From positions 224,001-288,000 of the forward strand of contig JAVRCV020000049.1 in assembly GCA_034530615.2 (NCBI GenBank): a DNA stretch of 64,000 nucleotides, written 5' to 3'. The notes below the pieces were generated by a model. The model was not told the DNA's origin and did no database searches. It saw only the letters and a program-made list of their open reading frames with translations. The translations under genes were made by a program, and so were the position numbers. The stretch comes from Aulosira sp. ZfuVER01 (GTDB lineage Bacteria > Cyanobacteriota > Cyanobacteriia > Cyanobacteriales > Nostocaceae). This document shows positions 17,774 to 37,300 of the stretch, in pieces. Numbering within the stretch: the stretch's first letter is position 1; every line of letters starts with the position of its first letter.

Positions 17774-18494
17774 AAACGTCACTGTCAGTTTTGATGGTTT
17801 TAAAGCACTCAACCAGCTAAATTTTAGTATGGATGTGGGAGAATTGCGAGTAGTGATTGGCCCTAACGGTGCTGGTAAAACCACATTTCTTGATGTGATT
17901 ACAGGTAAAGTACAACCAACAGTAGGAAGAGTTTTATTTAAAGGTAAAAACTTACGTTCTATACCTGAACATCAAATTGCACGGCGAGGAATTGGGCGCA
18001 AATTTCAAACACCTAGAGTTTATCTCAACTTAACACCAAGAGAAAATTTAGAAATTACCAGCAACCGTAATAAGAATGTTTTTTCGACATTGTTTGGGCG
18101 TTCTCATACCACTGAACAGAAGAGTATTACAGGGCTATTAGAAACCATCGGTTTAACTTCTAAAGCAGACATCCCAGCTGCCTTATTATCCCACGGCGAA
18201 AAGCAACGTTTAGAAATTGGAATGTTAGTAGGACAGTCACCAGACTTATTACTTGTAGATGAACCAGTCGCAGGTTTAACCGATGAAGAAACATATAACA
18301 TCGGCGAACTACTTTTAACCTTAGCGCAGAGTCATTCAATTTTAGTGATTGAACATGACATGGAATTTGTACGTCAAATTGCCAAAAAAGTCACAGTTTT
18401 ACATGAAGGTACGGTACTGTGTGAAGGCAATTTTGAAGAAGTGCAAAATGATTCTCGCGTGATTGAAGTATATTTAGGAAAACAGGAAGTATGA
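17748..18494 (+). CDS. urtD: Urea ABC transporter ATP-binding protein
   Basis: GPNGAGKT, GRKFQTP, LSHGEKQ and DEPVAG motifs; start moved to ATG 17748. Confidence 0.95.
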   Translation: MNAKILETENVTVSFDGFKALNQLNFSMDVGELRVVIGPNGAGKTTFLDVITGKVQPTVGRVLFKGKNLRSIPEHQIARRGIGRKFQTPRVYLNLTPRENLEITSNRNKNVFSTLFGRSHTTEQKSITGLLETIGLTSKADIPAALLSHGEKQRLEIGMLVGQSPDLLLVDEPVAGLTDEETYNIGELLLTLAQSHSILVIEHDMEFVRQIAKKVTVLHEGTVLCEGNFEEVQNDSRVIEVYLGKQEV

Positions 18495-18529
18495 ATTGGG
18501 GACTGGGGACTGAGAAGATGATAAACAAA

Positions 18530-18635
18530 TGTCTGGATCGCGGATTTTGACGGATTTTAAGATTACGCAGATTTTAAGATTACAACACCATTCCATAATC
18601 TGTGTTATCCCGTAATCCATCTAATCCGTGAGACA
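18530..18635. repeat. Imperfect palindrome of roughly 9-nt CGGATT-type units, 3' flank of the GxxExxY gene
   Basis: CGGATTTTGACGGATTTTAAGATTACGCAGATT pairs with AATCTGTGTTATCCCGTAATCCATCTAATCCG. Confidence 0.75.
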
Positions 18636-18643
18636 TTTTTCGC

Positions 18644-19021
18644 TCATCTAACCAACCGCTTAAAAGTCATACTTTTACTTCCAAAATTAATTAACAAACC
18701 AACCTCCAACTTATATGCTTTCAAATAATTCAAAGCTTGAGCTAAATGCACATCTTCAAGATTAATAACAGCCTTTAACTCAACCAATACCTTCCTCTCA
18801 ACAACAAAATCAGCCCTGCGAGTCCCAATCGGTTTATCCAAATCCTTATAAAAAATACTCTGTTCAATTTCACGCACAAACTGTAATCCTACTTGGCTCA
18901 TTTCGTGAGCCAAAGCCCTTTGATAAATTACTTCCTGAAACCCATTACCCAAAAACTTATGAACCTCAAAACTAGCCCCGATAATTTTCTGAGTAATATC
19001 AGCATACTTCAAACCCTCCAT
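18644..19021 (-). CDS. GxxExxY protein (PD-(D/E)XK nuclease-like)
   Basis: HKFLGNGFQEVIY, RADFVVE...VELKA, AQALNYLK and GLLINFG motifs. Confidence 0.93.
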   Translation of the reverse strand: MEGLKYADITQKIIGASFEVHKFLGNGFQEVIYQRALAHEMSQVGLQFVREIEQSIFYKDLDKPIGTRRADFVVERKVLVELKAVINLEDVHLAQALNYLKAYKLEVGLLINFGSKSMTFKRLVR

Positions 19022-19033
19022 ACAACACACTCA

Positions 19034-19129
19034 ATCACGAATTAAACAGATTTAAAGATTACAGCGATTTTATCTTTCAATACGATCCAAAAAAATCAGT
19101 GACATCCCGTAATCCGTAAAATCCGTGAT
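19034..19129. repeat. Second imperfect palindrome, 5' flank of the GxxExxY gene
   Basis: ATCACGAATT...GATTTT pairs with AAAATC...CCCGTAATCCGTAAAATCCGTGAT; shares ATCCCGTAATCC with the other flank. Confidence 0.75.
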
Positions 19130-19152
19130 AACTAATAGTAGAAAATTATTTT

Positions 19153-19851
19153 ATGCTAAAAATCTCTAACCTTAACGTTTACTACGGCGAAAGCCACATT
19201 CTCCGCAATGTAGATTTAACTGTACCAGCAGGGCAAATGATTTGCCTAATTGGACGCAATGGTGTAGGTAAAACAACCCTACTTAAAACTATTATGGGGT
19301 TACTTAAACCGCGCAGTGGCACAATTAACTTAGCTGGGAATTTAATTAACTCCAAATCACCAGACCAAAGGGCAAAAATGGGAATTGGTTATGTTCCCCA
19401 AGGACGAGAAATTATTCCCCGTTTGACAGTTAAAGAAAATCTGCTATTGGGATTAGAAGCTAGGCAGAAACAGGTTAAAAAAGCTGAAATTCCAGAAGAA
19501 ATTTTTAGCTTATTTCCGGTGTTGAAAACCATGTTATCGCGGATGGGTGGTGATTTAAGTGGCGGCCAGCAACAACAATTAGCGATCGCGCGTGCTTTAA
19601 TGGGACAGCCGCAATTACTCGTCTTGGATGAACCTACCGAAGGTATTCAACCCTCAATCATCCTCGAAATTGAAGCAGCCGTTCGCCGCATTATTGAAAC
19701 TACAGGCATTTCTGTTTTACTGGTAGAACAACACTTACACTTTGTCCGACAAGCTGATTATTATTACGCCATGCAAAAAGGCGCTATTGTTGCCTCTGGT
19801 TCAACCGATGAACTTAGTCAGGATGTGATTCAAAGGTTTTTGGCGGTTTAA
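19153..19851 (+). CDS. urtE: Urea ABC transporter ATP-binding protein
   Basis: YYGESHILR, GRNGVGKT, YVPQGRE, LSGGQQQQ and DEPTEGIQPS motifs. Confidence 0.96.
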   Translation: MLKISNLNVYYGESHILRNVDLTVPAGQMICLIGRNGVGKTTLLKTIMGLLKPRSGTINLAGNLINSKSPDQRAKMGIGYVPQGREIIPRLTVKENLLLGLEARQKQVKKAEIPEEIFSLFPVLKTMLSRMGGDLSGGQQQQLAIARALMGQPQLLVLDEPTEGIQPSIILEIEAAVRRIIETTGISVLLVEQHLHFVRQADYYYAMQKGAIVASGSTDELSQDVIQRFLAV

Positions 19852-21756: not shown

Positions 21757-22956
21757 CTACCACTTGCCAGAGTAATCTTCTTGTTGCAAACCGATAAACT
21801 GTCGCCGCTTCCAAGCATAATGCAGAATATTAATCCCTAATTCCTGGGCTGTTCTAATAGTTAACCGGGGTAAAGTCAATTCTCTATCTAATCCCCAAGC
21901 AGTTGCTAAATCACCAATTACTAAAATAATTCCGCCCCCAATTAACATTTTAATTAACTGTTGATTGATAATTGGCAAAGCAGCAAATAAGAAAGGTTTG
22001 GTTCGTAAAGGATGACTTCTTTGTAATTCTTCTAAAGGTCTTAAAGGATTTTCTAATTGCTGGGCTAAGGCATGTGTACTTTCAATCAGAGGGTTAGCAT
22101 CTTGAGGTGCATCAACTAAAAGTATGCCACCAGAATTTAAATAATTTCGTAGCGATTCAAATTCAATACTGTTAAAAGATAGTGCCTGCTGACCTGTTAA
22201 ATAAAGTAAGTCATAGTCTTGAATATTTTCACTTAAGGAAACCTGTCCTGGCTCATCGATTCCGCGTAAAGATGGGTATAGAGGTTCGATTGATTGCAAC
22301 AAATATGAGAGGTTGAAAAAATTCCGGGCGCATTCAGAATCGCTATGATTTACCTGCGCGATCGCAACATTTGTCTGTGGACGTGCTTGTGCATGACGGC
22401 GGTAACGTAAATCAATGTTTTGATAACCAGGAAAGAAAACATCCGCAGGTTGGCTAATGGCATTTTGTCCTGGCTGCAAAAGTATTCTACACAGTTCTAT
22501 TTCTGAACTTTCTAGGGTAGAGTTTTTTTGGTCAATGCGATATGTTTCTTGGACAATATCTCTTGGTTGTCCACGCCGCAATTCATCAGGATCTACATAA
22601 CTGACTACTAAGTAAATGGTAGCTGGTTCAGAACTTGCTACTTCTAAATCAATGGGAAAGTCATAAGCATTGGGCACTACAATTAAATTTCCAGCTACAT
22701 CAATGGCAATTCCTGGTTGAATTTGTACCCAGCGTCCATCTCGATATTTAGCTTCTACTTGGCGGGGTGCAGGAATGACTCTCACGCCTAAACCGCAGAC
22801 TATTCCAGGTTGGTTTAAGCATTGATAATGAGTGTTTTGTCGCAGTCGGTGGTAATCATGGGCTTTACTCCAACGTTCTGCATTTATTAGTAGTCCATCT
22901 GAAGCTTGTAGGCGTTCAAAGGATTTTATATTTGGTGGTGGGAATGGATGAGTCAC
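21757..22956 (-). CDS. CIS-associated protein: fibre-attachment-like N-domain plus DUF4159-like C-domain
   Basis: N-terminal PGIVCGLGV...QPGIAIDVAGNLIVV; C-terminal LLYLTG...YLNSGGILLVDA...DLATAW...LGINILHYA. Confidence 0.75.
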   Translation of the reverse strand: MTHPFPPPNIKSFERLQASDGLLINAERWSKAHDYHRLRQNTHYQCLNQPGIVCGLGVRVIPAPRQVEAKYRDGRWVQIQPGIAIDVAGNLIVVPNAYDFPIDLEVASSEPATIYLVVSYVDPDELRRGQPRDIVQETYRIDQKNSTLESSEIELCRILLQPGQNAISQPADVFFPGYQNIDLRYRRHAQARPQTNVAIAQVNHSDSECARNFFNLSYLLQSIEPLYPSLRGIDEPGQVSLSENIQDYDLLYLTGQQALSFNSIEFESLRNYLNSGGILLVDAPQDANPLIESTHALAQQLENPLRPLEELQRSHPLRTKPFLFAALPIINQQLIKMLIGGGIILVIGDLATAWGLDRELTLPRLTIRTAQELGINILHYAWKRRQFIGLQQEDYSGKW

Positions 22957-22971
22957 GTCGCTTCGCTCCGA

Positions 22972-22996
22972 ATTCAAAATTCAAAATTCAAAATTT
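22972..22996. repeat. Example heptamer STRR (AAATTCA)n; other 7-9 nt arrays near 6452, 26292, 26759, 26925-27045, 29588, 39340, 58826 and 58970
   Basis: Short tandem units at gene boundaries, typical of heterocystous cyanobacteria. Confidence 0.8.
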
Positions 22997-23035
22997 AAAG
23001 AAATATTGTAGTAGGGTGGGCATTGCCACATAATT

Positions 23036-24064
23036 TTAATTATTTTGATTTTCTATTAACAATTGATAGGTACAAAATGCAGGTTTTTCTTGTTCAATAA
23101 TTTTTCTGACTAATTGTTCATTTATCTGATGAGAAGAGGTTGTACGCAAGCGGACTATAAAGTGATATGCTTGTCCACCTGCTAAAACTGCGCTGCCGAT
23201 TTGGGCATCACCTAAGATAAAACTGGGGCCGAAGGGTTCTGTAATACTGATATGTTTATCAGCTTCGTTTGGGACATCCTCGTCTAAAGGTAAACCTGTA
23301 TAAAGGTGCAAGTAAAGACGCAATCCTTTCCGAGTTCCTCGCCAGCGATAAATTTCTACTGCACGGCGAATTAAACGGCGCTGTTGGTCGAGATTCCAGA
23401 CGGAATCTACTTGCCAAGCTACCCAATGGGCTAAAAAGGGTAGTATTGCCCTTGGTGCTGTCAAGGGGTCGATGTTTGCCCACATGACGTTAAAACTATC
23501 AATTGCAGGTTGATAAGCTTGTTCAAATATCTTGATGAAACGACCAATAAAGTCTATTTCTCGATAGAGAACTGGCAAAAATTCCATGTAGGCACTGTAG
23601 GGACGAATATATAAATTAAATGTCTCACTTTGCTGGATTTGTTCTTGCTCTGTACCTGGGTCGATATTAACAAGTACTAGACAGCGAAAGTTGAGAGTTA
23701 ATTTGTCTTTTTTCGCTGGTGAAATTGCTTCTTGGTCTTCAAAAAATGTGGCGGGAACAGTGAAATATAGCACTGCATCCATCTGTCCACCGGGCGGAAT
23801 TTCGCTACCTTCTGTACCAATTTGGCACCATTGGGATGGAAATTCACCTTCTACTTTTAAACTTAGTTGTAAGGGACGTTGTTCTAAGTTTTTTACTTGG
23901 ACAATCATCTCGCTGGGTTGTCCCGGATGCAAAAGCAAACTATGCCCTGTTTCATCTATACCTTCTGGGCCAGCAAATGCTAAACCTGCCCCAGGTACAG
24001 CTTCGGGAATTTGCATTGGGGTTAATTGAATGCTGATGGCTGGGCTATAACGGCTTTGAACCAT
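23036..24064 (-). CDS. CIS baseplate/tail protein (P2 gpI-like, TIGR02242-like) with N-terminal beta-sandwich extension
   Basis: DPLTAPRAILPFLAHWV, IYRWRGTRKGL and EKPAFCTY motifs. Confidence 0.85.
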   Translation of the reverse strand: MVQSRYSPAISIQLTPMQIPEAVPGAGLAFAGPEGIDETGHSLLLHPGQPSEMIVQVKNLEQRPLQLSLKVEGEFPSQWCQIGTEGSEIPPGGQMDAVLYFTVPATFFEDQEAISPAKKDKLTLNFRCLVLVNIDPGTEQEQIQQSETFNLYIRPYSAYMEFLPVLYREIDFIGRFIKIFEQAYQPAIDSFNVMWANIDPLTAPRAILPFLAHWVAWQVDSVWNLDQQRRLIRRAVEIYRWRGTRKGLRLYLHLYTGLPLDEDVPNEADKHISITEPFGPSFILGDAQIGSAVLAGGQAYHFIVRLRTTSSHQINEQLVRKIIEQEKPAFCTYQLLIENQNN

Positions 24065-24075
24065 AAGGTTTTCCC

Positions 24076-26265
24076 TCAGCGAGTAATGATTTGGATGTCG
24101 TGACCGGAACGCAGATTGGGGTCAAACCAAGAACAAACTAAACCTTGCACTCCTGGGTCAATTAATTGTTCTGGTGATGGTTGTCTTCTCCAGGTTTCTC
24201 CTTGCTTGCGGATGGGAAACAGCAGGACTGGGCCTAAATAACGCACGCCTGGGGTTTGTTGCATTAAGGCGATAATATCTGAAGTATAAACGGGTCGCCC
24301 AAAAGGCCAACCTTTACCTTCAGTGCCTCCGGTGAGGGGATTTAAATATTTATACAGAGCTATTCTTAAGTTGCGAAGAATTTCTGCTCTCGCTAAGGGG
24401 TTGTCATAAGTGGGTTCGAGAATAACTTCTGTTTGTACAGAAACACCGACGTAATCAGGTTCTAAGAGCCTGACTTGTACTCCTAATAACTTTCTTTCGT
24501 CTAAGTATTGTAAAACTTGCTCTTGCAGTGCGGGGCTGAGGGCAAATTGTGTCGGTGCAATACCTTCGCCTTGAGTAATGGCATCTGTATTCGCTTGGGG
24601 AACTACCAATAAGCTCACTGTACCCGCCTGACTAGTAGATAAACAACGCACACGAGCGATCGCACCTGCACCAGCTTGCTGCGCTAATACTTCAAAGTCT
24701 TCCGCAGTCACAGCGCGATCGCGTGTACGCAGGATGCGGGGAGCCTTAATCACAGCTTGTTCCAAAGATTCGGCATCTGCGCCGTTAATCGCAGCTTTGT
24801 AATTTGTGACACTAGCTACGTAGGGTACAGCGGACTTTAAAAACTGGAGTGAGCCTACTTGTACATTACCTTCTCTGCCGCCTCCTGTGCGGTAAGCGAG
24901 GATTCTAATCTCAGCGCCGCGTGGAGGAACTGCTCCGTATTGGTGTTCAAGTTGGTTTTCAATATCACTTACTTGCACAACGGTATCTTCTATTCTTGGC
25001 TGCTGAATACGCGATCGCACTTGTGTTTGGCGTTGGAGTTGTCCAGGTTCCCGAATTAACGGCCCAAACTGGACTACACCAGTTAGCGAATCAATAATAT
25101 AGTGACGGTCTTGGGGTGTAGAATCGGCAAAATCTCGCACCTCACGCCAAGTTTGCGGTAAGCCACCAGGGGGAGTAACGATGATGTATTCAGTTTCACG
25201 GCGTTCTAAAACGGGTGGTGCTTGTAATTGAAAGGTTTGTCCTGGTGTACCGTTACTAATTCCTAAGCGTTCATCTTGCAGCAAGGTGCTATGACTCGCC
25301 CTGACTGTTCCACCAATTGACCGCACCGCTAACCCAGTAATGCGTGGCGGACGGCTATAACCTTCTTGATTTGCTTCTGGGGTGGTAAAGCTACAACGCA
25401 GCCAGCGTCCTCGGTAAGCAGTAAAAGTCGTCACAGGCCAAGATTGGGGTAAATGCAGCCGCACATCTGCACCTTGCGCCGGATTTCCTCCCTGTTGGTT
25501 AATTTCGTAAAAACTGAAACCCCGTGTTTGGTCGTCTGACTCTTTCAGTAACACAGGTTGCCAATTTTCCCCATCCCAAGCTTCCCATTTGCGGGGCGGA
25601 TGATTGGGGTCAATACCTGTAGGTGTCGCCGCAGCCCCTTGGATAGTCACTTCTAGGACATTACCATCTAAAGGATCGTCAGAATTAATTACTAAATAAA
25701 AGCAGTTTCCAGCTTGCGGTTGTTCGTTAAATACAGGTTGTTCGCTACCAGCCCAGTAACCGTTAGGCTGACGAGTCCAGATATTTGAGAGGCGTTCGCG
25801 CAGAGATTGGGGAATATCTTCAATAGCTTGGGCGGTGAGGAAATGCTGTAAACGCGGTTTACCAATAATTAAAGGCGAATCTGTACTAAAGGTAATCGCT
25901 GGTGTAGTTTCCGTGCGGATTGTAGAAACTTCAATACCTGTAGGAATCGTATAAGCTTCAGGTAAGTCAGAACTTAAATAAAAAGTTAATTCTGTATGCG
26001 CTGGGGCGGGAGGTTGGAGGCGAATGCCCAATAATTCTAAAAAAGCTACATAATTTTTTCTTGGTACTTGGTTAAACCTGAGTAACATCTGGTCAGTTAA
26101 CCAAGCAAATAACTCAACTAGCGTCATTCCAGGATCGCTGAGGTTGTGGTCTGTCCATTCAGGACAGTAGCGCGGGATGCGCATTGTACACTCTTCGACT
26201 AAATCATCAAAAGTGCGATCGTCTAAGTTGGAAGATGGTAAGTGCGGTAAAAAATCAAATTTCAC
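24076..26265 (-). CDS. CIS baseplate assembly protein (baseplate J/Afp11-like, TIGR02243-like)
   Basis: NLDDRTFDDLV, PEWTDHNLSDPGMTLVELFAW, YRTGGG, RAVTAEDFE and GWPFGR motifs. Confidence 0.92.
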   Translation of the reverse strand: MKFDFLPHLPSSNLDDRTFDDLVEECTMRIPRYCPEWTDHNLSDPGMTLVELFAWLTDQMLLRFNQVPRKNYVAFLELLGIRLQPPAPAHTELTFYLSSDLPEAYTIPTGIEVSTIRTETTPAITFSTDSPLIIGKPRLQHFLTAQAIEDIPQSLRERLSNIWTRQPNGYWAGSEQPVFNEQPQAGNCFYLVINSDDPLDGNVLEVTIQGAAATPTGIDPNHPPRKWEAWDGENWQPVLLKESDDQTRGFSFYEINQQGGNPAQGADVRLHLPQSWPVTTFTAYRGRWLRCSFTTPEANQEGYSRPPRITGLAVRSIGGTVRASHSTLLQDERLGISNGTPGQTFQLQAPPVLERRETEYIIVTPPGGLPQTWREVRDFADSTPQDRHYIIDSLTGVVQFGPLIREPGQLQRQTQVRSRIQQPRIEDTVVQVSDIENQLEHQYGAVPPRGAEIRILAYRTGGGREGNVQVGSLQFLKSAVPYVASVTNYKAAINGADAESLEQAVIKAPRILRTRDRAVTAEDFEVLAQQAGAGAIARVRCLSTSQAGTVSLLVVPQANTDAITQGEGIAPTQFALSPALQEQVLQYLDERKLLGVQVRLLEPDYVGVSVQTEVILEPTYDNPLARAEILRNLRIALYKYLNPLTGGTEGKGWPFGRPVYTSDIIALMQQTPGVRYLGPVLLFPIRKQGETWRRQPSPEQLIDPGVQGLVCSWFDPNLRSGHDIQIITR

Positions 26266-26349
26266 AGTTACACCAAATTAGAGAGGGTGGGGTGTGGGGA
26301 GTGTGGGAAGTGTGGGGAGACAAGGGAGTATCTGACAAATTAGGAATTA

Positions 26350-26754
26350 TTATTCAGGAGGCAATAAATAAAACGGATAAACAAAGTTGTGAATATCAGG
26401 ATTGTCTTTAAGTCGATAATTAATATTGATGTCTACTCGGCCACGCACCGGGTCGGGTTCGGTGATGACTTGATCGACAATAATGCGTGGTTCCCAAACT
26501 TCTAGCGCTTCTAAAACATAAATCCGAATTCGCAGTAGAGTGTCGTTATTCATCGGTGCAAATGCCAATTCCGACAAACGGGAGCCAAAATTAGGGCGAT
26601 ATACCCGTTCACCTACGCCAGTCCGAAGAATTATCCAAATAGATTCTTTAACTTTTTGCGCTTCACTGCTGAGTTGTATCCCGCCTTGCAAACTCAAGCG
26701 CAAGGGAAAAGCCCAGCCTGTTCCTAAATAGTCTCGTTGCTGACCATAAACCAT
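26350..26754 (-). CDS. GPW/gp25 family baseplate protein (Afp9-like)
   Basis: LGTGWAFP, GERVYRPNFGS, WEPRI and VYPFY motifs. Confidence 0.93.
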   Translation of the reverse strand: MVYGQQRDYLGTGWAFPLRLSLQGGIQLSSEAQKVKESIWIILRTGVGERVYRPNFGSRLSELAFAPMNNDTLLRIRIYVLEALEVWEPRIIVDQVITEPDPVRGRVDININYRLKDNPDIHNFVYPFYLLPPE

Positions 26755-27045
26755 AAACAATTCAAAATTCAAAATTCAAAATTCAAAACCTAAGGTGGCA
26801 AGCATTAAGTAGCCAAAATGCTCGCAAATTAGACAGTCGTTGCTATATGGCTGTGATATCTATACTTTCAAAGATATCGGCACAGCAGATTTAAGCCTAT
26901 TCGCCAAAGGTCGAGATGAGGAAGACATGGGGACATTAAGACGCGGGGACATGAGGAAGTGCGGAAGTGAGGACATTAGAAAATTGTCATTCTCCATCTT
27001 TCTATCTCCGCGTCTTTGCGTCTCCCCCTCTCCGCGTCTCTTTCA

Positions 27046-27546
27046 TCAGCCCCCAATCAAAACAGTCATTTCACCTTTGGTAATTTTATTAGGTGGGCCG
27101 ACGGCTTCGAGAACGGTGTCACCCATGCGACTGGCTGGTAGTCCATTAATTAATACTGTTTGGCTACCATCAATCACAACACCAGGGCCGTGGGGAGGTA
27201 GAGGTAAGGGTGTGGTGCAATTATGAATATCAGCACCAACGGCGGCGGATGTAATTGCACTACCCATTGTAGCGGCTGCTGTGGCTTTGGTAGTTTGTTC
27301 AGCTGCGATCGCAGCTGGCGCACCTGGTGTCCCCGCCGCTGCTTTGGAAGCAGCCTCAGCTACTTGAATAGCCGTATCAGAAACTTGTTTCGCCGCCTGC
27401 AAAGCCTGCGCCGCCGCCGCAGGTATACCCCGCCATGCAGGTAAAGAGCCAATTAATACATTAGAGCTACCAGGGCCTCCCGTCAAAACTGGCGGTAACG
27501 GATGCGCCACAGAGTCAGTAATTCTTGCTGCTGGTCTTCCACTCAT
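27046..27546 (-). CDS. PAAR spike-tip protein with Ala-rich insertion
   Basis: GRPAARITD, LPAWR, LPASRMGD and VLIGG motifs; H/C residues in ADIHNC...PHG. Confidence 0.92.
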   Translation of the reverse strand: MSGRPAARITDSVAHPLPPVLTGGPGSSNVLIGSLPAWRGIPAAAAQALQAAKQVSDTAIQVAEAASKAAAGTPGAPAAIAAEQTTKATAAATMGSAITSAAVGADIHNCTTPLPLPPHGPGVVIDGSQTVLINGLPASRMGDTVLEAVGPPNKITKGEMTVLIGG

Positions 27547-27567
27547 TTTTCTTTGCGCCTACTCTAC

Positions 27568-27798
27568 GCTTGTGTTGTTGACCAAAGTACTTGCGTTGTG
27601 AACCAACGGACTTGTGTTGTGAACCAACGGACTTGTGTTGTGAACCAACGGACTTGTGTTGTGAACCAACGGACTTGTGTTGTGAACTAACGGACTTGCG
27701 TTGTGAACCAACGGACTTGTGTTGTTGACCAACAGACTTGTGTTGTTGACCAACGGACTTGTATTGTTGACCAACGGACTTGCGTTGTTGACCAACAG
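27568..27798. repeat. Tandem array of 11 x 21-nt units
   Basis: Consensus ACTTGTGTTGTGAACCAACGG, head to tail with no spacers. Confidence 0.95.
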
Positions 27799-27838
27799 AC
27801 TTGTGTATACACCCTAGGCCTCATGCCCTCTGCCTTTC

Positions 27839-29578
27839 TTAATTCAACCGAATTAGCGTACCTTTAACAGTCACATTCATCCCTGCGCTAATATCGATGT
27901 TGCCACTGGGTGCATCTAATGACAAGTCGCCTGTGGATTCTACGGAAATCTTTGCTCTACCCATATCGTCCATTTTAATTTTATGCCCGCCGTTGGTTTC
28001 AATTTCAATACAGCGATCGCTATCGTTGAGATAGATTTTATGTCCGCCTTTGGTTTCGACACGCACCCCTGCTTTACTGCTACCTTTATCTTCTTCGACA
28101 AACTGCAAGGTATGTCCTGTACGGGTTTTCACAGTCCGTAATCGCACTTTCCCCCCTACGACTGTATCATCCACTGCTTCGGGTGGCGCGTCTTTGCCGT
28201 TCCAAACACCGCCCAGTACATAAGGACGATGAATATCACCATGTTCACAACCAACTAACACTTCATCATTGACTTCTGGTAGACAGTCAAACCCCCGTTG
28301 ATTCGCTGCGCCCGAAGCTACAACTCGCGCCCAGTTGCTAGCGTGTTCTTCTGTGAGGGTGGGGAATTTGACTTTCACTCTCCCCAATCCCTTGGGGTCT
28401 TTGTTATCGGTGACAATTCCCACTAGAAAGGTTTGACCAGGCTGGAGGCGGGTTTGTGAAGAGAGAGTGGTGAATAAATTACCAGCCCGTAGCCCCCGGA
28501 TGCTGAACTCTGTAGTATAAATTCGCTGGGTGTAGAAATGGCGAGTTTCGGTCACATAATATTTCCCACTATAGCGATCGCCCATACCTGTAAGTTCAAT
28601 CACTTTCCCCGGTCTAACTTTGGGATTACCTACAGCTTTCGCATCTGCATAGACAAATTCTCCTCCCAATTCATCACACAAAGCCTGAGCCATTTTCTGT
28701 GCTTGTGTAGTGCTATTAATTGGTTGATCGACAACGGTCATTTTCGGCGGCTTTAAGTTGGAGAATTTAGTACTACTACTGCTACCTTTTTTATTACCTG
28801 TGTCAGTTATTACCGTTTCTGCTTTAGCTGTGGAAGCGATCGCTTTTTTCTGAGTATAATCCCAGCCACGTACTTCTACAGCACTCACTTGTTCCGCACT
28901 GGTAACGCGGGTACTAAATTTACTAATATCAACTAGCCATTTTAATTGGATAGATTCCTGACTTTCTGGTTTACGAAAATATATTTTGTCATTCTGAATG
29001 AATAATTCAAAACCAATGCGAGCAGCCCGTTCTCGCAAAAACTCCATATTAGTTTGGTTTTCTTGAAAGACATACTCATGAACTTCACCGCTTGCATCTA
29101 TTTTGCCGACTTTGATTCCTACTTCTGAAGCTATTTGCTCTACGATATCGCTATCAGTTTTATTTAAAAAGGAACGATTATAACGACCTCTGTGCAGACG
29201 ATGAGAAATATCATAGCCACGAATAATCATATGGGCTTCAGATTTTTCATTGAAGTGAACTTCCATTGCTGTAATTTCACCTTCAATTAAGTGGTCTTCT
29301 AACTTTTCATCAAAATCAGCATCTTGGGTAGTACTGGAAACAAAACCCAACTTGACTTTTTTACCAATTTCAAACAGTTTTTCATGCCGCCAAGGTTGGT
29401 ATTCTGCACGGTCAACTGTGGGAATATAGCTATTATGTACTACCAGCGTAAACATAGCTGGTAAATGCAAGCTTTCTTCTACGGTAATTTGTAATAAATC
29501 CTTAATTAGCTCAGGAGAAGCCTCTTGTCCTCCTAATTCTAATTTAGGTTGGCTTAAATAAAGACTTTGGTCGGGCAT
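27839..29578 (-). CDS. VgrG-related CIS hub/spike protein (Afp8-like)
   Basis: RGYDISHRLHRG, QENQTNMEFL, DPKGLGRVKVKFP, LPEVNDEVLV and PYVLGGVWNG motifs. Confidence 0.93.
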   Translation of the reverse strand: MPDQSLYLSQPKLELGGQEASPELIKDLLQITVEESLHLPAMFTLVVHNSYIPTVDRAEYQPWRHEKLFEIGKKVKLGFVSSTTQDADFDEKLEDHLIEGEITAMEVHFNEKSEAHMIIRGYDISHRLHRGRYNRSFLNKTDSDIVEQIASEVGIKVGKIDASGEVHEYVFQENQTNMEFLRERAARIGFELFIQNDKIYFRKPESQESIQLKWLVDISKFSTRVTSAEQVSAVEVRGWDYTQKKAIASTAKAETVITDTGNKKGSSSSTKFSNLKPPKMTVVDQPINSTTQAQKMAQALCDELGGEFVYADAKAVGNPKVRPGKVIELTGMGDRYSGKYYVTETRHFYTQRIYTTEFSIRGLRAGNLFTTLSSQTRLQPGQTFLVGIVTDNKDPKGLGRVKVKFPTLTEEHASNWARVVASGAANQRGFDCLPEVNDEVLVGCEHGDIHRPYVLGGVWNGKDAPPEAVDDTVVGGKVRLRTVKTRTGHTLQFVEEDKGSSKAGVRVETKGGHKIYLNDSDRCIEIETNGGHKIKMDDMGRAKISVESTGDLSLDAPSGNIDISAGMNVTVKGTLIRLN

Positions 29579-29693
29579 AATAAAATTAATTCGTAATACT
29601 TCGACTTCGCTCAGTACAAGTTCGTAATTCGTAATTAGGAAAAAAAATCAGGGTAGACATTGCCCATCATTTGTCAGTTTTAATTACAAATTT

Positions 29694-30242
29694 TTAGGTT
29701 TTTCCAAGGCTGGGATGTGGCTGACGATTTTCGCCTGTAGAAGCCGATTGTCTGCCCCCTGGAAGGTTATTTTTATCTACTTCTTGCAAAGCTATATCTA
29801 CCATTGCTCTAACTGGTGTGCCATCAGTCAGAAACATATTTAAATTGTAGGTGAGACTAGTAATTACACAATGAAAATATTCTGTTCCCCAAGTAAATAT
29901 ATAAACAGGTGGGCGCTTGTCTGGGTTACGTTCAATAGTTTCTACGCCTTTCTTGATAATGTCTATATATTTCATTACAGATTGTTTGGTTTCATATGTA
30001 TCAAACAGTAGTTGTTTGAGGGTGAATTTGTAAGGCTCTACCCCAGAAAAATTTACTTTAGGTAATAGAGTTGTTCCTCTATTACCTGGATCACTTTGCC
30101 AACTAACAGTCCGAGAAAAACTGATTTCTGTAGGATTAAACATCAATTCAATATCAGGCGCTTCACTGTTATAAGCTACGAGTTTAGCTTTTACCAGTTG
30201 GGGATTTTTCTTTTGGGGAATTACAATTGTTTGATTCGCCAT
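29694..30242 (-). CDS. CIS tube-initiator protein (Afp7-like), no LysM tail
   Basis: MFNPTEI, LLFDTYE, RPPVYIFTWG and MFLTDGTPVRA motifs; start moved to ATG 30242. Confidence 0.85.
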   Translation of the reverse strand: MANQTIVIPQKKNPQLVKAKLVAYNSEAPDIELMFNPTEISFSRTVSWQSDPGNRGTTLLPKVNFSGVEPYKFTLKQLLFDTYETKQSVMKYIDIIKKGVETIERNPDKRPPVYIFTWGTEYFHCVITSLTYNLNMFLTDGTPVRAMVDIALQEVDKNNLPGGRQSASTGENRQPHPSLGKT

Positions 30243-30284
30243 TTGAATATTTCTTCTCCTTTGCGGTTCGTTTTTATTAAACAA

Positions 30285-33227
30285 TTACCAAGGTAAGCGA
30301 CCGAAATAGATACCTTGACGCTCTCGCTCAATTTCTATACGTTGTCGCAATCTGTTATATATTTCATAGGCTAAAGCTTCCAAATTTCCAGATTCATCAG
30401 CTTCGGGAACAGCAGCAGATGGACTTTGTATGGTTTCAGTTATTGGCTGTATATCTCTAGCTATATCAGGTGCGATGACTTCTCCACCATTAGCAAAGCC
30501 TTTCGGAGAAGTTAAGGGTTTAGTAAAAATCTGTGGTGATGCTGATGATTGTAAAACTTGAGAATATTCTGGATTTTGCCAGTTAGATTCTCCACTATTA
30601 AAGTTAAAAGATGTAAATGGATCGTTGTTACCGTTGAGTAATTCTTCCACACTTGACCATTGGGTAGGTGTTTCATAGCCTGCGTTAGTATTGGAACTCG
30701 GTTTGCGGAAAATTAATGTAGGTAATGAGTAATGAGGTGAAGGTTCCGTTTTTGCAGTGGCTTTGTTTTCTACAGTATTGAGTTGCAAAAAACTGGGTGA
30801 AGAAAGTCTATGTTTACTAATTTCTGTTCCCAACGAAGAAGGTATTAGCGAGTTAGATTCCTCCGATGAGTGATTTTCAGAGTTTTGCCGCTGTAATGAA
30901 ATGTCAGCAAAAGAATCGACTTTAGTCGGAGTCTCTGGAGTCGGTATTTCTAAACTCGGAAGAATAATATCCTCTGGTGTACCGCCAGTATTGATATGCC
31001 GAAGTATGGGAAGATTTTTTTGAGCATCATTAGCATTAACTACAAACTCCCCAGGTGTGAGCATTGCAGGTATAGTATCCGAAGAGGCTATCTGTGGATT
31101 TTCGACTGAGGACTGTGTTACTTGTCCGCCTGTTGCAAAACCTTGGGGTGCGGGTAAATTGTTTAAGACTGTATTTTGTTCAACTTCTTTGGGAGTCTGG
31201 TCAATAAAGTTTGTCACCGCAGATGGTAAATTTGCTTCTACAGGTTGTTCGTGAGTAGCGACTTCCGGGAAAATACTTGATGCTGTTGTAAAATTTGGTG
31301 GGGTAACAAATGAAAGTGCGATCGCACTCTCATCTAGTTGAGTAACTTCTTTAGTTTCAGCTAATATAGGCGGCTTTACAACAGTCGGAATATCTGTGTT
31401 TGCTTGGCTATCATCTGGTGAGAAAACCATACTTTCCGACGCATCCCCCAAATTAACCGATTCCGCAGACTGTAATTCTGAAGGAACTATCAGGTTATCT
31501 GTAATTACAGGTGAGGTTGGCGCTAGCTGAACGGGTACATTGTTGGTGCTTTCAGTTTGTTGGGGAGTTAGATTTGCTGACGCATCCACAAAATTCACCG
31601 ATTCATCAGACTGTGTTTCTGAAGAAACTATTAGTTTATCTGCAATTACAGGTGAGGTTGGCGCTAACTCAACAGGTACGTTACTGGTGCTGTCAGTTTG
31701 TCGGGAAGTCAGATTTGCTGACACATCTACAAAATTAACTGATTCCGCAGACTGTAATTCTATCGGGTTATCTGCAATTACAGATGAAGTTGGCGCTAAC
31801 TCAACAGGGATATTGCTGGTACTGTCAGTTTGTTGGGAAGCCAGATTTGCTGACGCTTCCACAAAATTCACTGATTCCGCAGACTCTAATTCTATCGGGT
31901 TATTTGCAATTACAGGTGGAGTTGGTGCTAGCTGAATGGGTACATTGCTGATAATCTCAGGTGTGGTTAGAGTTGGAATATCTTCTACGTCTAAAGCATT
32001 AATTATGGTTGAATATTCAGTGCTAAGTACAGCAGATTGTACTTCAGAGACATTTGCTAAAATATGGGATAAGTTAGGGGTTTCTTCAACACTAAGTAAA
32101 GTAGTTTTTGCTAAAGGATTGTTAGATTCTGGAAGAATATTTGAGATTAATTCAGTTGCAATTTCCCTACTTGTATGCGGTAAACCTTCTTGCTGTTGTA
32201 GAGTTAAGGCTTCTTCTTGTCTAAAAATATTTGGATTATTAGCTATCTCTTGTGGTTGTGAAGTTGGGTTAATTAGAATATTTGAGACATCAACAGCTTG
32301 TGGCGCTTCTTGTACTATAGGCTGTTCGCTATTATTTAAGTTATCAATATTAGTTATATTAGTTTCTGCTGTTAAAATTTGAACTGAATCTTTGATAATA
32401 TGTGGCGATCGCGTGATGATTTCAGGTATATTGACAGCATGAACTATTGTTGTTAACTCAGTACTAGTCACAGTAGAGCCTAAAGCATGAATCACTTGGT
32501 TTTCATCACTAGTGAAATTCTCGAACAAGACAGATCCATTGTCAACTATAGGCGGAATTTCTAAGCTATTCAGGGGAGTAATACTAATAAAATCTCTATC
32601 ATTGATACTGTTATTTACAACTGGATATGGTTGTATTTTATGCTCTTGGGTGTTTTCAGGATTAGCTAATAAAACAGCAGACTCATCTTGGCTTCCTAAG
32701 CCAATTTCATTAAAATTATTAACAACAGTAATCTCATCAAGTTGCCTATTAACTTGCTCTGTTGCAGAAATGTTAGGATTTTTTTGGGATTTATTTTTTG
32801 CTCGTGTACTACGAGATTTCTCTGTTTTTTTAGGTTTAGACTTAGCTTTAATATTTAATTCTGGCGTAATATTATTTGGCTTACTGTTTTCTGGCTCAGA
32901 TAATATATTTGGGATATCACCTTGGATATTTTCACTAACTGAATCAACTGTATCAAATTGAATTAAGGGAAAATCAGCATTAATATACTCAGGTTCAGGA
33001 ATATTAGCATCTATTAATGGATTGCTGAATGCTGGATTTTCATGAGATAGTAAAAATTGTGAGTAGGTGGCTAAAGGTACTTGATTTACTAAAGGCTTGA
33101 TCGTACTGCCATGTCCATGTACAGAAATAGACTCTTTTCTTGATAAAAGTCTATGAGAATAACCTAGAGGCTTTCTTACCCCAAGTGGTTGTAATCTAGT
33201 ACCCAGTAGTGGTTGAATGATTTGCAT
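30285..33227 (-). CDS. 980-aa acidic low-complexity protein with internal repeats and tape-measure-like motifs
   Basis: Long ORF inside the CIS operon; four repeats of about 44-47 aa; GFATGG...DTIPAMLTPGEFVVN; C-terminal LEALAYEIYNRLRQRIEIERERQG. Confidence 0.8.
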   Translation of the reverse strand: MQIIQPLLGTRLQPLGVRKPLGYSHRLLSRKESISVHGHGSTIKPLVNQVPLATYSQFLLSHENPAFSNPLIDANIPEPEYINADFPLIQFDTVDSVSENIQGDIPNILSEPENSKPNNITPELNIKAKSKPKKTEKSRSTRAKNKSQKNPNISATEQVNRQLDEITVVNNFNEIGLGSQDESAVLLANPENTQEHKIQPYPVVNNSINDRDFISITPLNSLEIPPIVDNGSVLFENFTSDENQVIHALGSTVTSTELTTIVHAVNIPEIITRSPHIIKDSVQILTAETNITNIDNLNNSEQPIVQEAPQAVDVSNILINPTSQPQEIANNPNIFRQEEALTLQQQEGLPHTSREIATELISNILPESNNPLAKTTLLSVEETPNLSHILANVSEVQSAVLSTEYSTIINALDVEDIPTLTTPEIISNVPIQLAPTPPVIANNPIELESAESVNFVEASANLASQQTDSTSNIPVELAPTSSVIADNPIELQSAESVNFVDVSANLTSRQTDSTSNVPVELAPTSPVIADKLIVSSETQSDESVNFVDASANLTPQQTESTNNVPVQLAPTSPVITDNLIVPSELQSAESVNLGDASESMVFSPDDSQANTDIPTVVKPPILAETKEVTQLDESAIALSFVTPPNFTTASSIFPEVATHEQPVEANLPSAVTNFIDQTPKEVEQNTVLNNLPAPQGFATGGQVTQSSVENPQIASSDTIPAMLTPGEFVVNANDAQKNLPILRHINTGGTPEDIILPSLEIPTPETPTKVDSFADISLQRQNSENHSSEESNSLIPSSLGTEISKHRLSSPSFLQLNTVENKATAKTEPSPHYSLPTLIFRKPSSNTNAGYETPTQWSSVEELLNGNNDPFTSFNFNSGESNWQNPEYSQVLQSSASPQIFTKPLTSPKGFANGGEVIAPDIARDIQPITETIQSPSAAVPEADESGNLEALAYEIYNRLRQRIEIERERQGIYFGRLPW
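31435..31945 (-). repeat. Four intragenic repeats of about 132-141 nt
   Basis: Recurring P(V/I)(E/Q)LAPT...S(A/D)ESVN(F/L) blocks. Confidence 0.85.
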
Positions 33228-33250
33228 ATCTATCGTCGGAAAATTGTAGA

Positions 33251-33784
33251 TTAATTAGACAAGAAAAATCCCGACTTCATCTCTCGTGTTTGGGGATTAC
33301 CTCCTCCTTTGGCTTTACCTAATTGCAAACCTTCATAAGCTAAAGTTAATTCTTCTATAGCAACTGCATTACCATCTGCCTGCAAGGTTGGGGTTTTCCA
33401 AGATATAGGAATAGCCCCAATCAATGTCCAACTCATCATCGTTTCGCCACCTTGATTAAAAACAAGAATATTCACATTACGTCGAGGTGTGGCTTTGTTT
33501 TCATCAAAGACTGCATTAATCCAATTCCAAAAACCAGGGTGGTCAGTAACACCACGTTTCAGGGTGACATCGGCAAATTCTGTATGTCCTAAATAAATTC
33601 TTTGCTGGTCGTTGACACCTCCTTCAAAAAAAACATTTTTCTTCATTTGCAGACTTAAGCCCGAACATTCAGTAAAAGATGCAGCAATTGAACTATCTAT
33701 TTCTACATAGAAATGATTGGTGGTGACATAATTTAACTCGTGAGAGACATTGCCGTTATTATTGCTTCCAGCCATTACAACCAC
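33251..33784 (-). CDS. CIS tail tube protein (T4 gp19-like, Afp1/Afp5 type)
   Basis: FYVEID...FTECSGL, EGGVND, VTLKRG and VAIEELTLAYEG motifs. Confidence 0.92.
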   Translation of the reverse strand: MVVMAGSNNNGNVSHELNYVTTNHFYVEIDSSIAASFTECSGLSLQMKKNVFFEGGVNDQQRIYLGHTEFADVTLKRGVTDHPGFWNWINAVFDENKATPRRNVNILVFNQGGETMMSWTLIGAIPISWKTPTLQADGNAVAIEELTLAYEGLQLGKAKGGGNPQTREMKSGFFLSN

Positions 33785-34014
33785 CTTTGATGACTATAAT
33801 TATTGAACCTTTCGCGTTGATAACGTAGGTCTTCAAGTAACAGTTCATACACACGCTCAGTCAGCTTGTGCAAAAGCAATGAGTCTTTGAGGTACTTGTC
33901 GGCTGCTTTAGCCGCTTGGCTAGCGTTAGAGGTGATTGACAGCCCCGCGTAACCAACACTACCCCCAACTTCGCCAACAGGTGTAAAAAAAGTTTGCTTG
34001 ACTTCGGAGTCCAT
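33775..34014 (-). CDS. Small CIS-associated protein
   Basis: First ORF of the operon, overlapping the tube gene; LTERVYELLLEDLRYQRER resembles the 980-aa protein C-terminus. Confidence 0.7.
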   Translation of the reverse strand: MDSEVKQTFFTPVGEVGGSVGYAGLSITSNASQAAKAADKYLKDSLLLHKLTERVYELLLEDLRYQRERFNNYSHQRWL

Positions 34015-34378: not shown

Positions 34379-37300
34379 TTATTCCCAGTGATGAAATTCA
34401 TCATTGGTATTGCGCAATAAAGAACTAATTTGCGCTCGGCGCGTTTCAAAGTTAGCAGCAATGGAAATTAAGACTATCCCTACGAATAAGCCCACAACCC
34501 ATTTTAAGAATGGATAACGCAAACTGAAAATTACTAATTGGTAAATACTAGTAATTAAAAATGCGGCTGTACCAATGTAAAGAAATGCTCTGATTCGCAA
34601 ACCCAATCCCGCAAAAATGGCGATGAGGCTGAAAATTCCCGGTATCAAGGCTGTATCTTGATTGAAAATAATTGCCCATCCGCAAATTAATCCACTAGCA
34701 AACATTCTTAAACTGTGACGAGCAGCTTTCGATTCTGGTAGCCTCAGTAGGGGATCTATTTGGGCAATATATAAAAGCGATAAACCAATTACTGTGACAT
34801 ACCACAAACTATCAGTTAGGCGTAAGTCATAAAACCAGCGAAATAGTGCCCAATCAATTAATACGACGCTGATATATGTAAACCGAATGTTATTGCCAAC
34901 CTTGGCGAGGAATATATAGTAACAAGCTGCGATCGCTAAAGTAATCGGGTAAACTTTCAGGCTGGTTTCAGCTAAAATTATCAATGGAATAATATATGCT
35001 GCCGTTTGCCAAGGTCTTTTCGGCCAACCCCAATTCTCCCAAGGTAAGATGTAGAGAAAGTAGGCAACTACACAGGCGATCGCACCATTCCAAGGAATTA
35101 ATGGCCCTGTTATCAAATGTCCTACTATTGTTTCGCGCCAATAAATTCTGATAGCTGCTACCTGTAATAAACCGAGATAAACCCACATCTCTGCTATGGT
35201 AATTCCTCCCAGAATACGGGAAGATGCAGAAGCACCTCTGCCTTGAAAAATCGCATACTGAATCAAAACAACCCCTGTACCCAACCCTAACAGGCGATTT
35301 ACTTGGATGGGAGCGCTAATCGCAGTGAGTAATAAAAAACTACTCCAAGCCCAGTGAAGATGGGCGATACTATTCAATTGTTGACGAGTCAGACCTAAGT
35401 AATCTAATAGCCAAGGCGATAAAATGCGATAGGCATACATAATACTAGTACCCAGAGCAGCCATAGCAATTAAGCCATCGCCATACGCGCCGCCTTTAGC
35501 TTGTGACATTTGGTAGAACAACAATTCATAGGCAGAAATTGATACGCCAATCAATCCCAAATACAACAAGGGTTTGAAGCTTTCTTGCCGTCTTCCGACA
35601 CCAATGACAATCAAAGCTACACCTAAAGAACATAAACCTGTCCAGTCTTCAAATGTCTGCAAGCGTAGTAATACACTTAAGGCAGCATACATCAGTGGCA
35701 GAATGTGCAGGCTACTCTTGAGCCTTTGTGTTTGATAGCGTCGTCGCCACCATTCTCCCAAAATTTGGGTACTCAAACCTAGGGCAATATTTGCGATCGC
35801 CATATTCACAACTGAACGTCCCCAAAACCCTAGCAATTCGGCAATCAGCAATTCCAGGCACCAACCGATGCCATAAAATGCCCAATTGCTGGGTTGTCCC
35901 CAACTGCGGTAGGTGATGGCTACTAAATTTATGGCAATGGCGGTTAAATATAACCATCCCGGCGCAACAGTTCCCTGATAAACAACAAGGGAATGGATTG
36001 TCAGCAAGAATAACTCAACGCTACACAAAGCGATCGCCCATTTATCGCTGGCGGCTGCATATATAGTTGTGAGTTCGCTACCTTGGCGAATTAAGGCTGT
36101 ACGCCCTAACCATAAACTCAAAGTTGCGATCGCACCAACAATAAACCAACCTGCTAGGCTTAATTTTGCTAATCCCGGTATACCTTCCCACAGCAGCACA
36201 CCAATAAAACTCAGCCCAAAGCCAATTGTAATTGCAGCTGATATTTGATATTGCAAATAGCGTGTATTGGCAAACATCAAAACTGTAGCCACAGCCAAAC
36301 CGATTAATCTAGTTCCTGGTAGCTGTAATGTTAGTAATTGGGCAACACCTACAGCCAAAATACTCAAGCTAGTACTGATAGTGCGACGCTGTGCAGTTGT
36401 GCGGCTAGCGATCCCTGTGAGTGTTAAAGGTGTAACTAGCCAAATAATTCCCCAGTGGTGGTAACTACGAACAACGCCAAACCAAGATGTTTCGGCATTT
36501 ACCCAAAATAGAGCGAAACTGACAAAGGCTAGTGCTAAACCAATATGCCATGCACTACGTCGCCATATTCCACTACTAAGGCTATATCCCCACTCCACCA
36601 CCATCAAAACTAACAAAATGCTTGCCCAGATTTCTCTACCCAAACTTGGTAACAGCCAATTAACGATTGAGCAAAGTGTCAGCACTGCCATGATATGAGT
36701 TAGGTAAAGCAAAGGAGAAGATTCTCTTTGTCTTTCTTCTCTGTCAAAGCGGCGTTTGGTGACAACTGCAAGGGTAATGGTAGAAAATAACAAATTTAGC
36801 GATCGCAATGTGGGATTTACTAAGGCGATCGTTGTTAAGACAGTTCCCAGCATCAGCGCTAACATCTCGCCAAATTCACCCAAGTCTCTTTTTTGGGCAC
36901 GATAAAAGCGATCCGTCAGCGCCACTATGAAAATGATGTAAGGAAATAAAGCAACACTCAGCAAAGCCCAAGGTTCATTTTGCGACTTCGTAAGTTGCGT
37001 ACCAAAAGCGATCGCTCCTTCCTGAACGCTTGCAGGTACTAACCGCCAACCTAACCAAATAGTCTGTAAGCCAATCGCAAAAACTGCTGCTAAGTCAGTC
37101 TGTAAACTATACCTCTGCAAGCGACTGCCCACAAACTGCAAACTCAACCCACTTACAGCTATGGCTTGCCAAGGGTAGTTTGTCACTGCAACCAACCAAC
37201 CCAGGAATAGTAATACACTACCAAGCCTTTCCCAGATGAGGAAGGATGAGGAGGACGAGGGGGACAAGGGAGAAGAAGAAACTGCTTCCCCGGCTCCCTG

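What the first reader, a model, noticed from the sequence alone, without database searches (positions are those of the whole stretch)
21757..34014. Contractile injection system operon with a full baseplate and spike but no sheath, cap or ATPase
Seen: ten co-oriented genes, namely a small ORF, tube, 980-aa protein, tube initiator, VgrG-like, PAAR, gp25, baseplate J-like, tail protein and a DUF4159 fusion. All reading frames are intact. No sheath, second tube gene, DUF4255 cap, AAA ATPase, lysis genes or T6SS membrane complex is recognisable in the 64 kb. Known: the TIGR02243/TIGR02242/VgrG-related gene set resembles the Streptomyces-type cytoplasmic CIS. Inference: this is either one half of a split CIS locus (more likely) or a sheathless derivative in a filamentous cyanobacterium.
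Basis: partly seen in the sequence, partly recalled or inferred. Interest (0 to 1): 0.75.

Follow-up and report, generated by a model that had tools for sequence, protein, structure and literature searches.

The report
Baseplate half of split injection system
These ten genes encode the baseplate and spike of a Streptomyces-type contractile injection system whose sheath, tube, cap and ATPase genes lie elsewhere in the same cyanobacterial genome, an already catalogued split layout, and the assembled machine likely fires at the cell's own membrane through a predicted docking adaptor.

Summary
The ten co-oriented genes are real and intact, but the system is not sheathless. The same genome carries a cap–sheath–tube–tube–chaperone operon (contig C68) with no baseplate of its own and a cap-like gene plus AAA ATPase (C33). 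The C68 sheath and the window's baseplate and spike all match the Streptomyces cytoplasmic CIS best among solved structures. In 251 genomes of the order, 77 of 77 with this baseplate also have this sheath; 25 keep them within 60 kb, and close relatives keep them hundreds of kb to megabases apart on one chromosome. Structural genes show dN/dS 0.02–0.17, so it is no relic. Split subtype IId loci in cyanobacteria are already catalogued (8 of the 13 split loci in Chen et al. 2019), and this scan noted one before in another genome. What remains of interest: the DUF4159 fusion is predicted to carry a TssK-like shoulder, and its gene travels with a single-pass membrane protein gene (contig C66), suggesting a membrane-docking adaptor; binding is untested. 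No experimental study of cyanobacterial IId systems turned up in my searches.

The parts
33775..34014 (-). 79-aa ORF; C-terminal helix motif shared with the end of the 980-aa protein; function unknown
   Evidence: HHalign probability 92.6%, E 4.5e-7; dN/dS 0.11-0.14
33251..33784 (-). tube protein, likely the baseplate-proximal tube adaptor (Cis1b/Cis5-like)
   Evidence: PF06841 E 1e-40; best CIS family NF053770 CIS5, below its cut-off
30285..33227 (-). 980-aa low-complexity protein with a phage tape-measure motif (res 695-752) and a conserved C-terminal helix; likely lumenal cargo, plug or length-control protein
   Evidence: PHROG 25241 E 5e-5; orthologues 605-2362 aa; motif ends proteins of 53-1421 aa
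29694..30284 (-). tube initiator (Cis7-like)
   Evidence: PF19266 E 4e-24
27839..29578 (-). VgrG-like spike/hub (Cis8)
   Evidence: NF033848 E 1e-114; best PDB 9GTR E 2e-56
27046..27546 (-). PAAR spike tip (Cis10)
   Evidence: PF05488 E 2e-13
26350..26772 (-). gp25-like sheath initiator (Cis9)
   Evidence: PF04965 E 5e-22
24076..26265 (-). baseplate J-like wedge (Cis11)
   Evidence: TIGR02243 E 1e-211; best PDB 9GTP E 2e-121
23036..24064 (-). Tail_P2_I wedge protein (Cis12) with an extra, likely Ig-like N-terminal domain
   Evidence: TIGR02242 E 2e-39, PF09684; weak NPCBM_assoc hit E 0.02 on the N-terminus
21757..22977 (-). fibre-slot protein: predicted TssK/eBAP3-like shoulder plus DUF4159 head; likely baseplate-to-membrane adaptor
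   Evidence: PF13709; model pLDDT 69.5; Foldseek 4I66 E 3e-9 and TssK 5Y0E E 1.5e-3; phage RBP shoulders; gene neighbourhood

Best explanation
The window holds the baseplate-and-spike module of a subtype IId (Streptomyces-type) contractile injection system whose sheath, tube, cap and chaperone genes sit on contig C68 and whose ATPase sits on C33, and the parts likely assemble in the cytoplasm into one contractile particle that is predicted to dock on the cell's own membrane before firing. Shown: the module's genes, the partner modules in the same genome, their co-occurrence and purifying selection. Inferred from the solved Streptomyces particle: VgrG, initiator and the window's tube seed the baseplate (two Cis11 to one Cis12 per wedge), the C68 tubes and sheath polymerise on it from gp25, Pvc16 caps it. 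Inferred from fold and gene neighbourhood (about 0.3-0.4): the DUF4159 fusion hangs from Cis12 by a TssK-like shoulder and its head binds one of two single-pass membrane proteins encoded on C66, doing the job that CisA does in Streptomyces. Inferred by analogy only (about 0.5): firing damages or signals in the producing cell under stress or during filament development.
For: Sheath, two tubes, Pvc16 cap, two tail-assembly chaperones and an FHA protein form an operon at C68:7043-13983 and no baseplate gene other than the window's is left over for it. C68 sheath matches 8BKY/9GTP at E 4e-126 against 1.5e-54 for the Anabaena sheath; window baseplate and spike match 9GTP and 9GTR best. 77 of 77 genomes with this baseplate hold this sheath, of 251 searched; 25 within 60 kb. 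Modules are joined in G013, G010:C106, G023, G018, G028. The C33-type ATPase follows the DUF4159 gene directly in 8 of 29 related loci. Sheath and baseplate trees share their supported clades. dN/dS 0.02-0.17 for structural genes of all modules. The C66 membrane-protein gene is in 75 of the 77 genomes and in none of the other 174; the DUF4159 gene lies within 8 kb of it in 61 of 78 copies, 19 of them away from the baseplate gene.
Against: No expression, particle or phenotype data for this genome. The TssK match is weak (E 1.5e-3, query TM 0.23) on a medium-confidence model, and the second aligner never ran. Some of the 19 neighbourhood cases may be contig breaks, and related genomes are not independent. 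In this genome the DUF4159 gene stays with the baseplate and away from C66. eBAP3-type shoulders are described as anchors of outward-facing fibres (PMC12923769), which fits a released particle. The system also occurs in unicellular genera (Chen Table S2 rows), so it is not tied to filament development. I found no motif shared upstream of the scattered modules.
Confidence: 0.92

Rival explanations
1. Same split IId system, but it works as a released extracellular CIS: the DUF4159 head is a receptor-binding domain for other cells and the C66 proteins are cargo or sensors, not a dock.
For: The shoulder resembles phage receptor-binding proteins and eBAP3 fibre anchors beside Tail_P2_I genes (PMC12923769 passages); Sco4256-4258, which share the C66 architecture, were described as toxic effectors; eCIS_core (DUF4157) genes flank the system in relatives.
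Against: The head is almost invariant across the order (75 of 77 genomes; dN/dS 0.06-0.09), unlike a host-range module; characterised IId systems stay in the cytoplasm. This rival shares the split-locus verdict and differs only in mode of action.
Confidence: 0.25
2. Sheathless derivative: baseplate, spike and one tube act without a contractile sheath.
For: No sheath gene within the 64-kb window, and at least 66 kb separate the module from the C68 sheath whatever the contig order.
Against: An orthologous IId sheath operon is in the genome and in 77 of 77 genomes with this baseplate; gp25, which starts the sheath, is under purifying selection.
Confidence: 0.01
3. A spare baseplate that borrows the sheath of the thylakoid-anchored CIS on C38 or of the third locus on C22.
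For: Both loci have sheath genes.
Against: C38 has its own complete baseplate and its sheath matches All3325 (E 3e-187); C22 has its own hub and spike genes; C38 parts are 26-36% identical to the window's; G015 and G019 have this baseplate and only the C68-type sheath at E<=1e-10.
Confidence: 0.02
4. A decaying relic of a broken-up cluster.
For: The ancestral cluster is scattered over five places; G016 has breaks in both sheath and baseplate genes, and G115 and G197 have a stop in the baseplate match.
Against: All frames are open here, and dN/dS against G003 and G011 is 0.02-0.17, like neighbouring control genes at 0.08-0.12.
Confidence: 0.04

Closest known systems
Streptomyces coelicolor cytoplasmic CIS (CIS-Sc, sco4242-4260; dbeCIS subtype IId; PDB 8BKY, 9GTP, 9GTR)
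   Same: Best structural-database match for sheath, baseplate J and spike; one Cis11 gene, one-piece Cis8, Tail_P2_I-type Cis12, Pvc16 cap, AAA ATPase; single-pass membrane proteins with Ig-like N-termini linked to the system.
   Different: Genes scattered over five places; three tube genes, two Pvc16 genes; PAAR present; a soluble TssK-like DUF4159 fusion, not the membrane protein CisA, follows Cis12; Cis12 has an extra N-terminal domain; linked two-component, kinase and FHA genes; diderm host.
Split IId eCIS loci of cyanobacteria in dbeCIS (Chen et al. 2019, PMC6899500 Table S2: Nostoc sp. PCC 7107, Anabaenopsis, four Arthrospira, Acaryochloris, Gloeomargarita)
   Same: Same subtype, same phylum, tube and baseplate genes in separate places. 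Orthologues at 77-84% lie on AP018223, a replicon on which that study lists a IId locus.
   Different: That study looked for split loci only in genomes without a contiguous one, so a genome like this, which also has a contiguous tCIS, would have been passed over; here ATPase, membrane proteins and regulators are separate too.
Anabaena PCC 7120 thylakoid-anchored CIS (tCIS, subtype Ib; Weiss et al. 2022, PMC8894136)
   Same: A cyanobacterial CIS; this genome has its own copy on C38.
   Different: A different lineage: 26-45% identity between matching parts; tCIS anchors through Cis12/Cis13 extensions, and none of the window proteins scanned for it (79 aa, 980 aa, PAAR, Cis12, DUF4159) has a clear transmembrane helix.
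T6SS TssK and eCIS eBAP3 fibre anchors (PDB 5Y0E; PMC12923769)
   Same: Predicted shoulder fold, gene beside a Tail_P2_I (TssG-like) gene.
   Different: Head is DUF4159 (Hoch_4089 fold), a term absent from that paper's main text; no TssJLM genes were looked for or seen.

Membership tests
eCIS/CIS superfamily (dbeCIS core) | Afp1/5 tube, Afp2/3/4 sheath, Afp7, Afp8, Afp9, Afp11, Afp15 ATPase, Afp16 cap all encoded | tested here: met
   window: Afp5/7/8/9/11; C68: sheath, tubes, cap; C33: ATPase
dbeCIS subtype IId | sheath and baseplate closest to Streptomyces CIS | tested here: met
   best PDB matches 8BKY/9GTP/9GTR; no tree with all six subtypes was built
dbeCIS subtype IId | single afp11, one-piece afp8, afp10 (PAAR) present | tested here: met
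   definition from PMC6899500 passages
dbeCIS subtype IId | no canonical Afp14 tape measure | tested here: inconclusive
   the 980-aa protein has no Pfam or NCBIfam match but carries a short phage tape-measure motif
split eCIS locus (Chen et al. 2019) | tube/sheath and baseplate genes more than 30 kb apart in one genome | tested here: met
   at least 66 kb in G000 by contig-end distances; 0.39 Mb round the chromosome in G003 and 2.5 Mb in G011
Streptomyces cytoplasmic CIS (CIS-Sc) | membrane protein CisA encoded after cis12 | tested here: not met
   the slot holds the DUF4159 fusion, hydropathy peak 1.89, modelled as soluble; a CisA homologue elsewhere in the genome was not searched
Streptomyces cytoplasmic CIS (CIS-Sc) | Sco4256-4258-like single-pass membrane proteins | tested here: inconclusive
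   C66 pair has the same layout (one TM at 355 and 375; Atlas lead 0.88 to actinobacterial Ig-like clusters); no direct sequence comparison; cyanobacterial homologues are reported in PMC10020575
Streptomyces cytoplasmic CIS (CIS-Sc) | cytoplasmic particles that contract at the own membrane and cause cell death | not testable with these tools
   needs cryoET and mutants
thylakoid-anchored CIS (subtype Ib) | All3325-type sheath, long Cis11, Cis6 plug (DUF5908), Cis13 with TM helix | tested here: not met
   these mark the separate C38 locus; DUF5908 does not match the window's 79-aa or 980-aa proteins

The most novel reading that the evidence does not exclude
Cyanobacterial IId injection systems dock on their own membrane by a T6SS-like route: a TssK-like DUF4159 adaptor on the baseplate binds conserved single-pass Ig/WD40 membrane proteins, under kinase/FHA and two-component control, giving about a third of this order a second, self-directed nanomachine for programmed cell death or filament breakage that nobody has yet looked at.
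Probability: 0.3. Interest if true: 0.65.

Novelty: new member of a known kind. Interest (0 to 1): 0.28.

Why it matters
The sheathless idea is wrong and the split layout is known, so the finding itself is ordinary. Its use is as a parts list: five scattered modules that a locus-based search would miss in a genome that also has a contiguous tCIS. The system is present in 77 of 251 genomes of the order and I found no experimental study of it. If the predicted TssK-like adaptor binds the C66 membrane proteins, it would explain how a CIS without CisA fires inside a diderm cell and would link cytoplasmic CIS to T6SS-style membrane docking.

Tried and rejected
Sheathless derivative: rejected. Borrowing the C38 or C22 sheath: rejected. 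Relic: rejected. Assembly artefact: rejected, the module is 59 kb and 246 kb from its contig ends and relatives show the split on single chromosomes. 980-aa or 79-aa protein as a Cis6/Afp6 plug: the gene slot fits, but DUF5908 matches neither and a search for more DUF5908 sequences found only the C38 copy in 121 genomes, so it stays a guess. C-terminal motif as a genome-wide cargo tag: a profile found only the 980-aa protein significantly among 70,412 frames; the 79-aa ORF scored E 0.57. Homology of the Cis12 N-terminus with the C66 proteins: none by BLASTP. Shared upstream motif among modules: 7 shared 8-mers against a shuffled mean of 3.9 and maximum of 11. Single-sequence fold of the DUF4159 protein failed (pLDDT 32). 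Complex prediction of the DUF4159 head with the two C66 N-termini: no verdict. RNA runs: none was listed. The VIA-align check of the TssK match did not run. No PDB sequence match for the 79-aa ORF. In one search the C68_114 column picked up the paralogue and was ignored. Supplementary Data 4 of PMC10020575 (Sco4256 homologues) was not among the text I could see and bears on the C66 assignment.

Full report
Observation. The ten minus-strand ORFs between 21757 and 34014 are present and open. Pfam and NCBIfam name eight of them: tube, tube initiator, VgrG-related spike, PAAR, gp25, baseplate J (TIGR02243, E 1e-211), Tail_P2_I/TIGR02242 protein and a DUF4159 fusion. The closest named relatives are Nostoc, Calothrix and Tolypothrix proteins at 89-96%, so the host is a heterocyst-forming cyanobacterium of that group. 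The window is G000:C49:224001-288000 of a 99.99% complete, 83-contig genome.

The missing parts are in the genome. Family searches found three sheath genes (C68, C22, C38), five tube genes and three Pvc16 caps (C33, C38, C68). C38 is a complete thylakoid-type CIS with its own baseplate; its sheath matches Anabaena All3325 at E 3e-187. C22 is a third locus with its own hub and spike genes. C68:7043-13983 is an operon of cap, 553-aa sheath, two tubes, two tail-assembly chaperones (PHROG 508) and an FHA protein, with no baseplate gene; apart from C38 and C22, the window's are the only baseplate genes in the genome. C33:10664-13899 has a second Pvc16-like gene and a 656-aa AAA ATPase. The C68 sheath matches the Streptomyces CIS sheath best (8BKY/9GTP, E 4e-126), as do the window's baseplate J (9GTP, E 2e-121) and spike (9GTR, E 2e-56).

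The modules belong together. Among 41 relatives, 18 of 18 genomes with a baseplate orthologue (60% identity or more) have the C68-type sheath; one fragmented genome has only the sheath. Among 251 genomes drawn from the order, with thresholds set at the score gap seen in those calls, 77 have the baseplate and 79 the sheath, 77 of 77 overlapping; three genomes have two of each; one split baseplate gene and one split sheath gene were counted once. In 25 of the 77 the two genes are within 60 kb, in 5 they are 0.14-2.2 Mb apart on one contig, and in 47 they are on different contigs, which mostly says nothing. Kin are not independent, so I give no weight to a P value. In G013, G010:C106, G023, G018 and G028 the modules lie 13-53 kb apart in shuffled order. 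In G003 baseplate, ATPase and sheath lie at 52, 798 and 8319 kb of an 8656-kb contig, in G011 at 116, 5347 and 2631 kb. In G000 the two main modules are at least 66 kb apart. Trees of 14 sheaths and 14 baseplates share the supported groups (G000, G003, G011), (G019, G010b, G013) and a nine-row clade, and differ in the places of G028 and the long-branched G023; shared descent alone would give this, but it shows that paralogous sets keep their partners. The C33-type ATPase directly follows the DUF4159 gene in 8 of 29 related loci; related ATPases also serve other CIS loci, so it may be shared with C22.

Not a relic. Pairwise dN/dS (Nei-Gojobori) against G003 and G011 is 0.02-0.17 for the structural genes of all three modules, 0.26 for the FHA protein and 0.45-0.54 for the poorly alignable 980-aa protein; two neighbouring control genes give 0.08 and 0.12.

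Two further modules. Genes that sit inside the cluster in relatives map in G000 to C66:75914-80453 (two proteins of 744 and 763 aa, each with one transmembrane helix, the first ending in WD40 repeats) and C36:36843-41532 (histidine kinase, LuxR-type regulator, kinase-like/PBP protein, FHA protein). The 744-aa gene is found in 75 of the 77 baseplate genomes and in none of the other 174. Its layout is that of Sco4256-4258 (PMC10066040 passages), homologues of which are reported in cyanobacterial IId regions (PMC10020575 passages); my own support is only an Atlas lead (0.88).

The DUF4159 fusion. It occupies the slot after Cis12, where Streptomyces has the membrane protein CisA. A model from 25 aligned sequences (pLDDT 69.5) matches Hoch_4089 (4I66, E 3e-9) and next T6SS TssK (5Y0E, E 1.5e-3, probability 0.97), and shoulders of phage receptor-binding proteins. 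TssK-like eBAP3 anchors beside Tail_P2_I genes are described in PMC12923769 (passages). The gene is in 75 of the 77 genomes. Of 78 copies, 42 lie within 8 kb of both baseplate J and the membrane-protein gene, 19 only of the membrane-protein gene, 10 only of baseplate J, 7 of neither; some of these separations are contig breaks. From established T6SS knowledge (recalled), TssK links the wedge to the membrane complex; I infer the same role here, at about 0.3-0.4.

The 980-aa and 79-aa proteins. The 980-aa protein is low-complexity, 605-2362 aa in eight relatives, has a short phage tape-measure motif and ends in a conserved helix found at the end of proteins of 53-1421 aa (150 of 184 hits listed, five dropped before the profile). 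The 79-aa family shares that helix (HHalign 92.6%). Its gene stands where tCIS has the Cis6 plug, but DUF5908 does not match. Lumenal cargo, plug or ruler are all open; tape-measure-related effectors are known in Streptomyces CIS (PMC13277306, part of text and passages).

How it likely works. Shown: parts, partners, selection. Inferred from the solved CIS-Sc particle (PMC12237407 passages): baseplate nucleates tube and sheath, Pvc16 caps. Inferred: docking on the own membrane through the DUF4159 adaptor and C66 proteins, triggered through the linked kinase, FHA and two-component genes. By analogy with Streptomyces and Roseiflexus IId systems the target is more likely the producing cell than a neighbour; a released particle remains a real rival.

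What is known. Chen et al. 2019 (PMC6899500; passages and supplement rows) define split eCIS loci and list 13, of which 8 are cyanobacterial and all 8 are IId. The layout is therefore in print. Searches of the held library showed no experimental work on a cyanobacterial IId CIS and no link of DUF4159 to CIS; subscription papers are mostly outside that library. Weiss et al. 2022 (PMC8894136, passages) concerns the other, Ib, system.

Verdict. Observation confirmed; split locus; new member of a known kind; interest 0.28.

Noticed in passing
G000:C38 (L012, L013): A complete thylakoid-type CIS (ATPase, cap, sheath, two tubes, Cis6 plug, initiator, spike, PAAR, gp25, large baseplate proteins); the genome thus holds three CIS lineages.
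   Followed up: partly
G000:C22 (L016:7849-19540, L040): A third CIS-like locus ending at the contig end, with a 379-aa sheath and an 1856-aa protein bearing OmpA, peptidoglycan-binding and protein-arginine deiminase domains; a 664-aa relative (36%) lies on C66 near the membrane-protein pair.
   Followed up: partly
L014:7043-9184: The last gene of the sheath operon fuses an FHA domain to a methylglyoxal-synthase-like domain (NCBIfam E 3e-21, below cut-off); kept in several relatives.
   Followed up: no
G000:C36:36843-41532 (L039): Four-gene regulatory module that adjoins the sheath or baseplate module in many relatives but stands alone here.
   Followed up: partly
G000:C62:50572-55722 (L041): 1716-aa protein with eCIS_core (DUF4157), DUF6861 and Ntox1 domains, away from any CIS locus: a candidate cargo for one of the three systems.
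   Followed up: no
window 34379-38326: 1315-aa multi-pass membrane protein with a weak DUF2157 match upstream of the module; not in that place in G003 or G011, so probably unrelated.
   Followed up: partly
window 14028-19851: An ABC transporter operon that looks like urea uptake urtABCDE, with a short opposite-strand gene (18644-19030) inserted before the last gene; the names are recalled, from no call.
   Followed up: no
G013, G010:C106, G015, G019, G024: The gene slot after VgrG varies: the PAAR gene is not matched there, and in G013 a DUF4142 gene takes its place.
   Followed up: no
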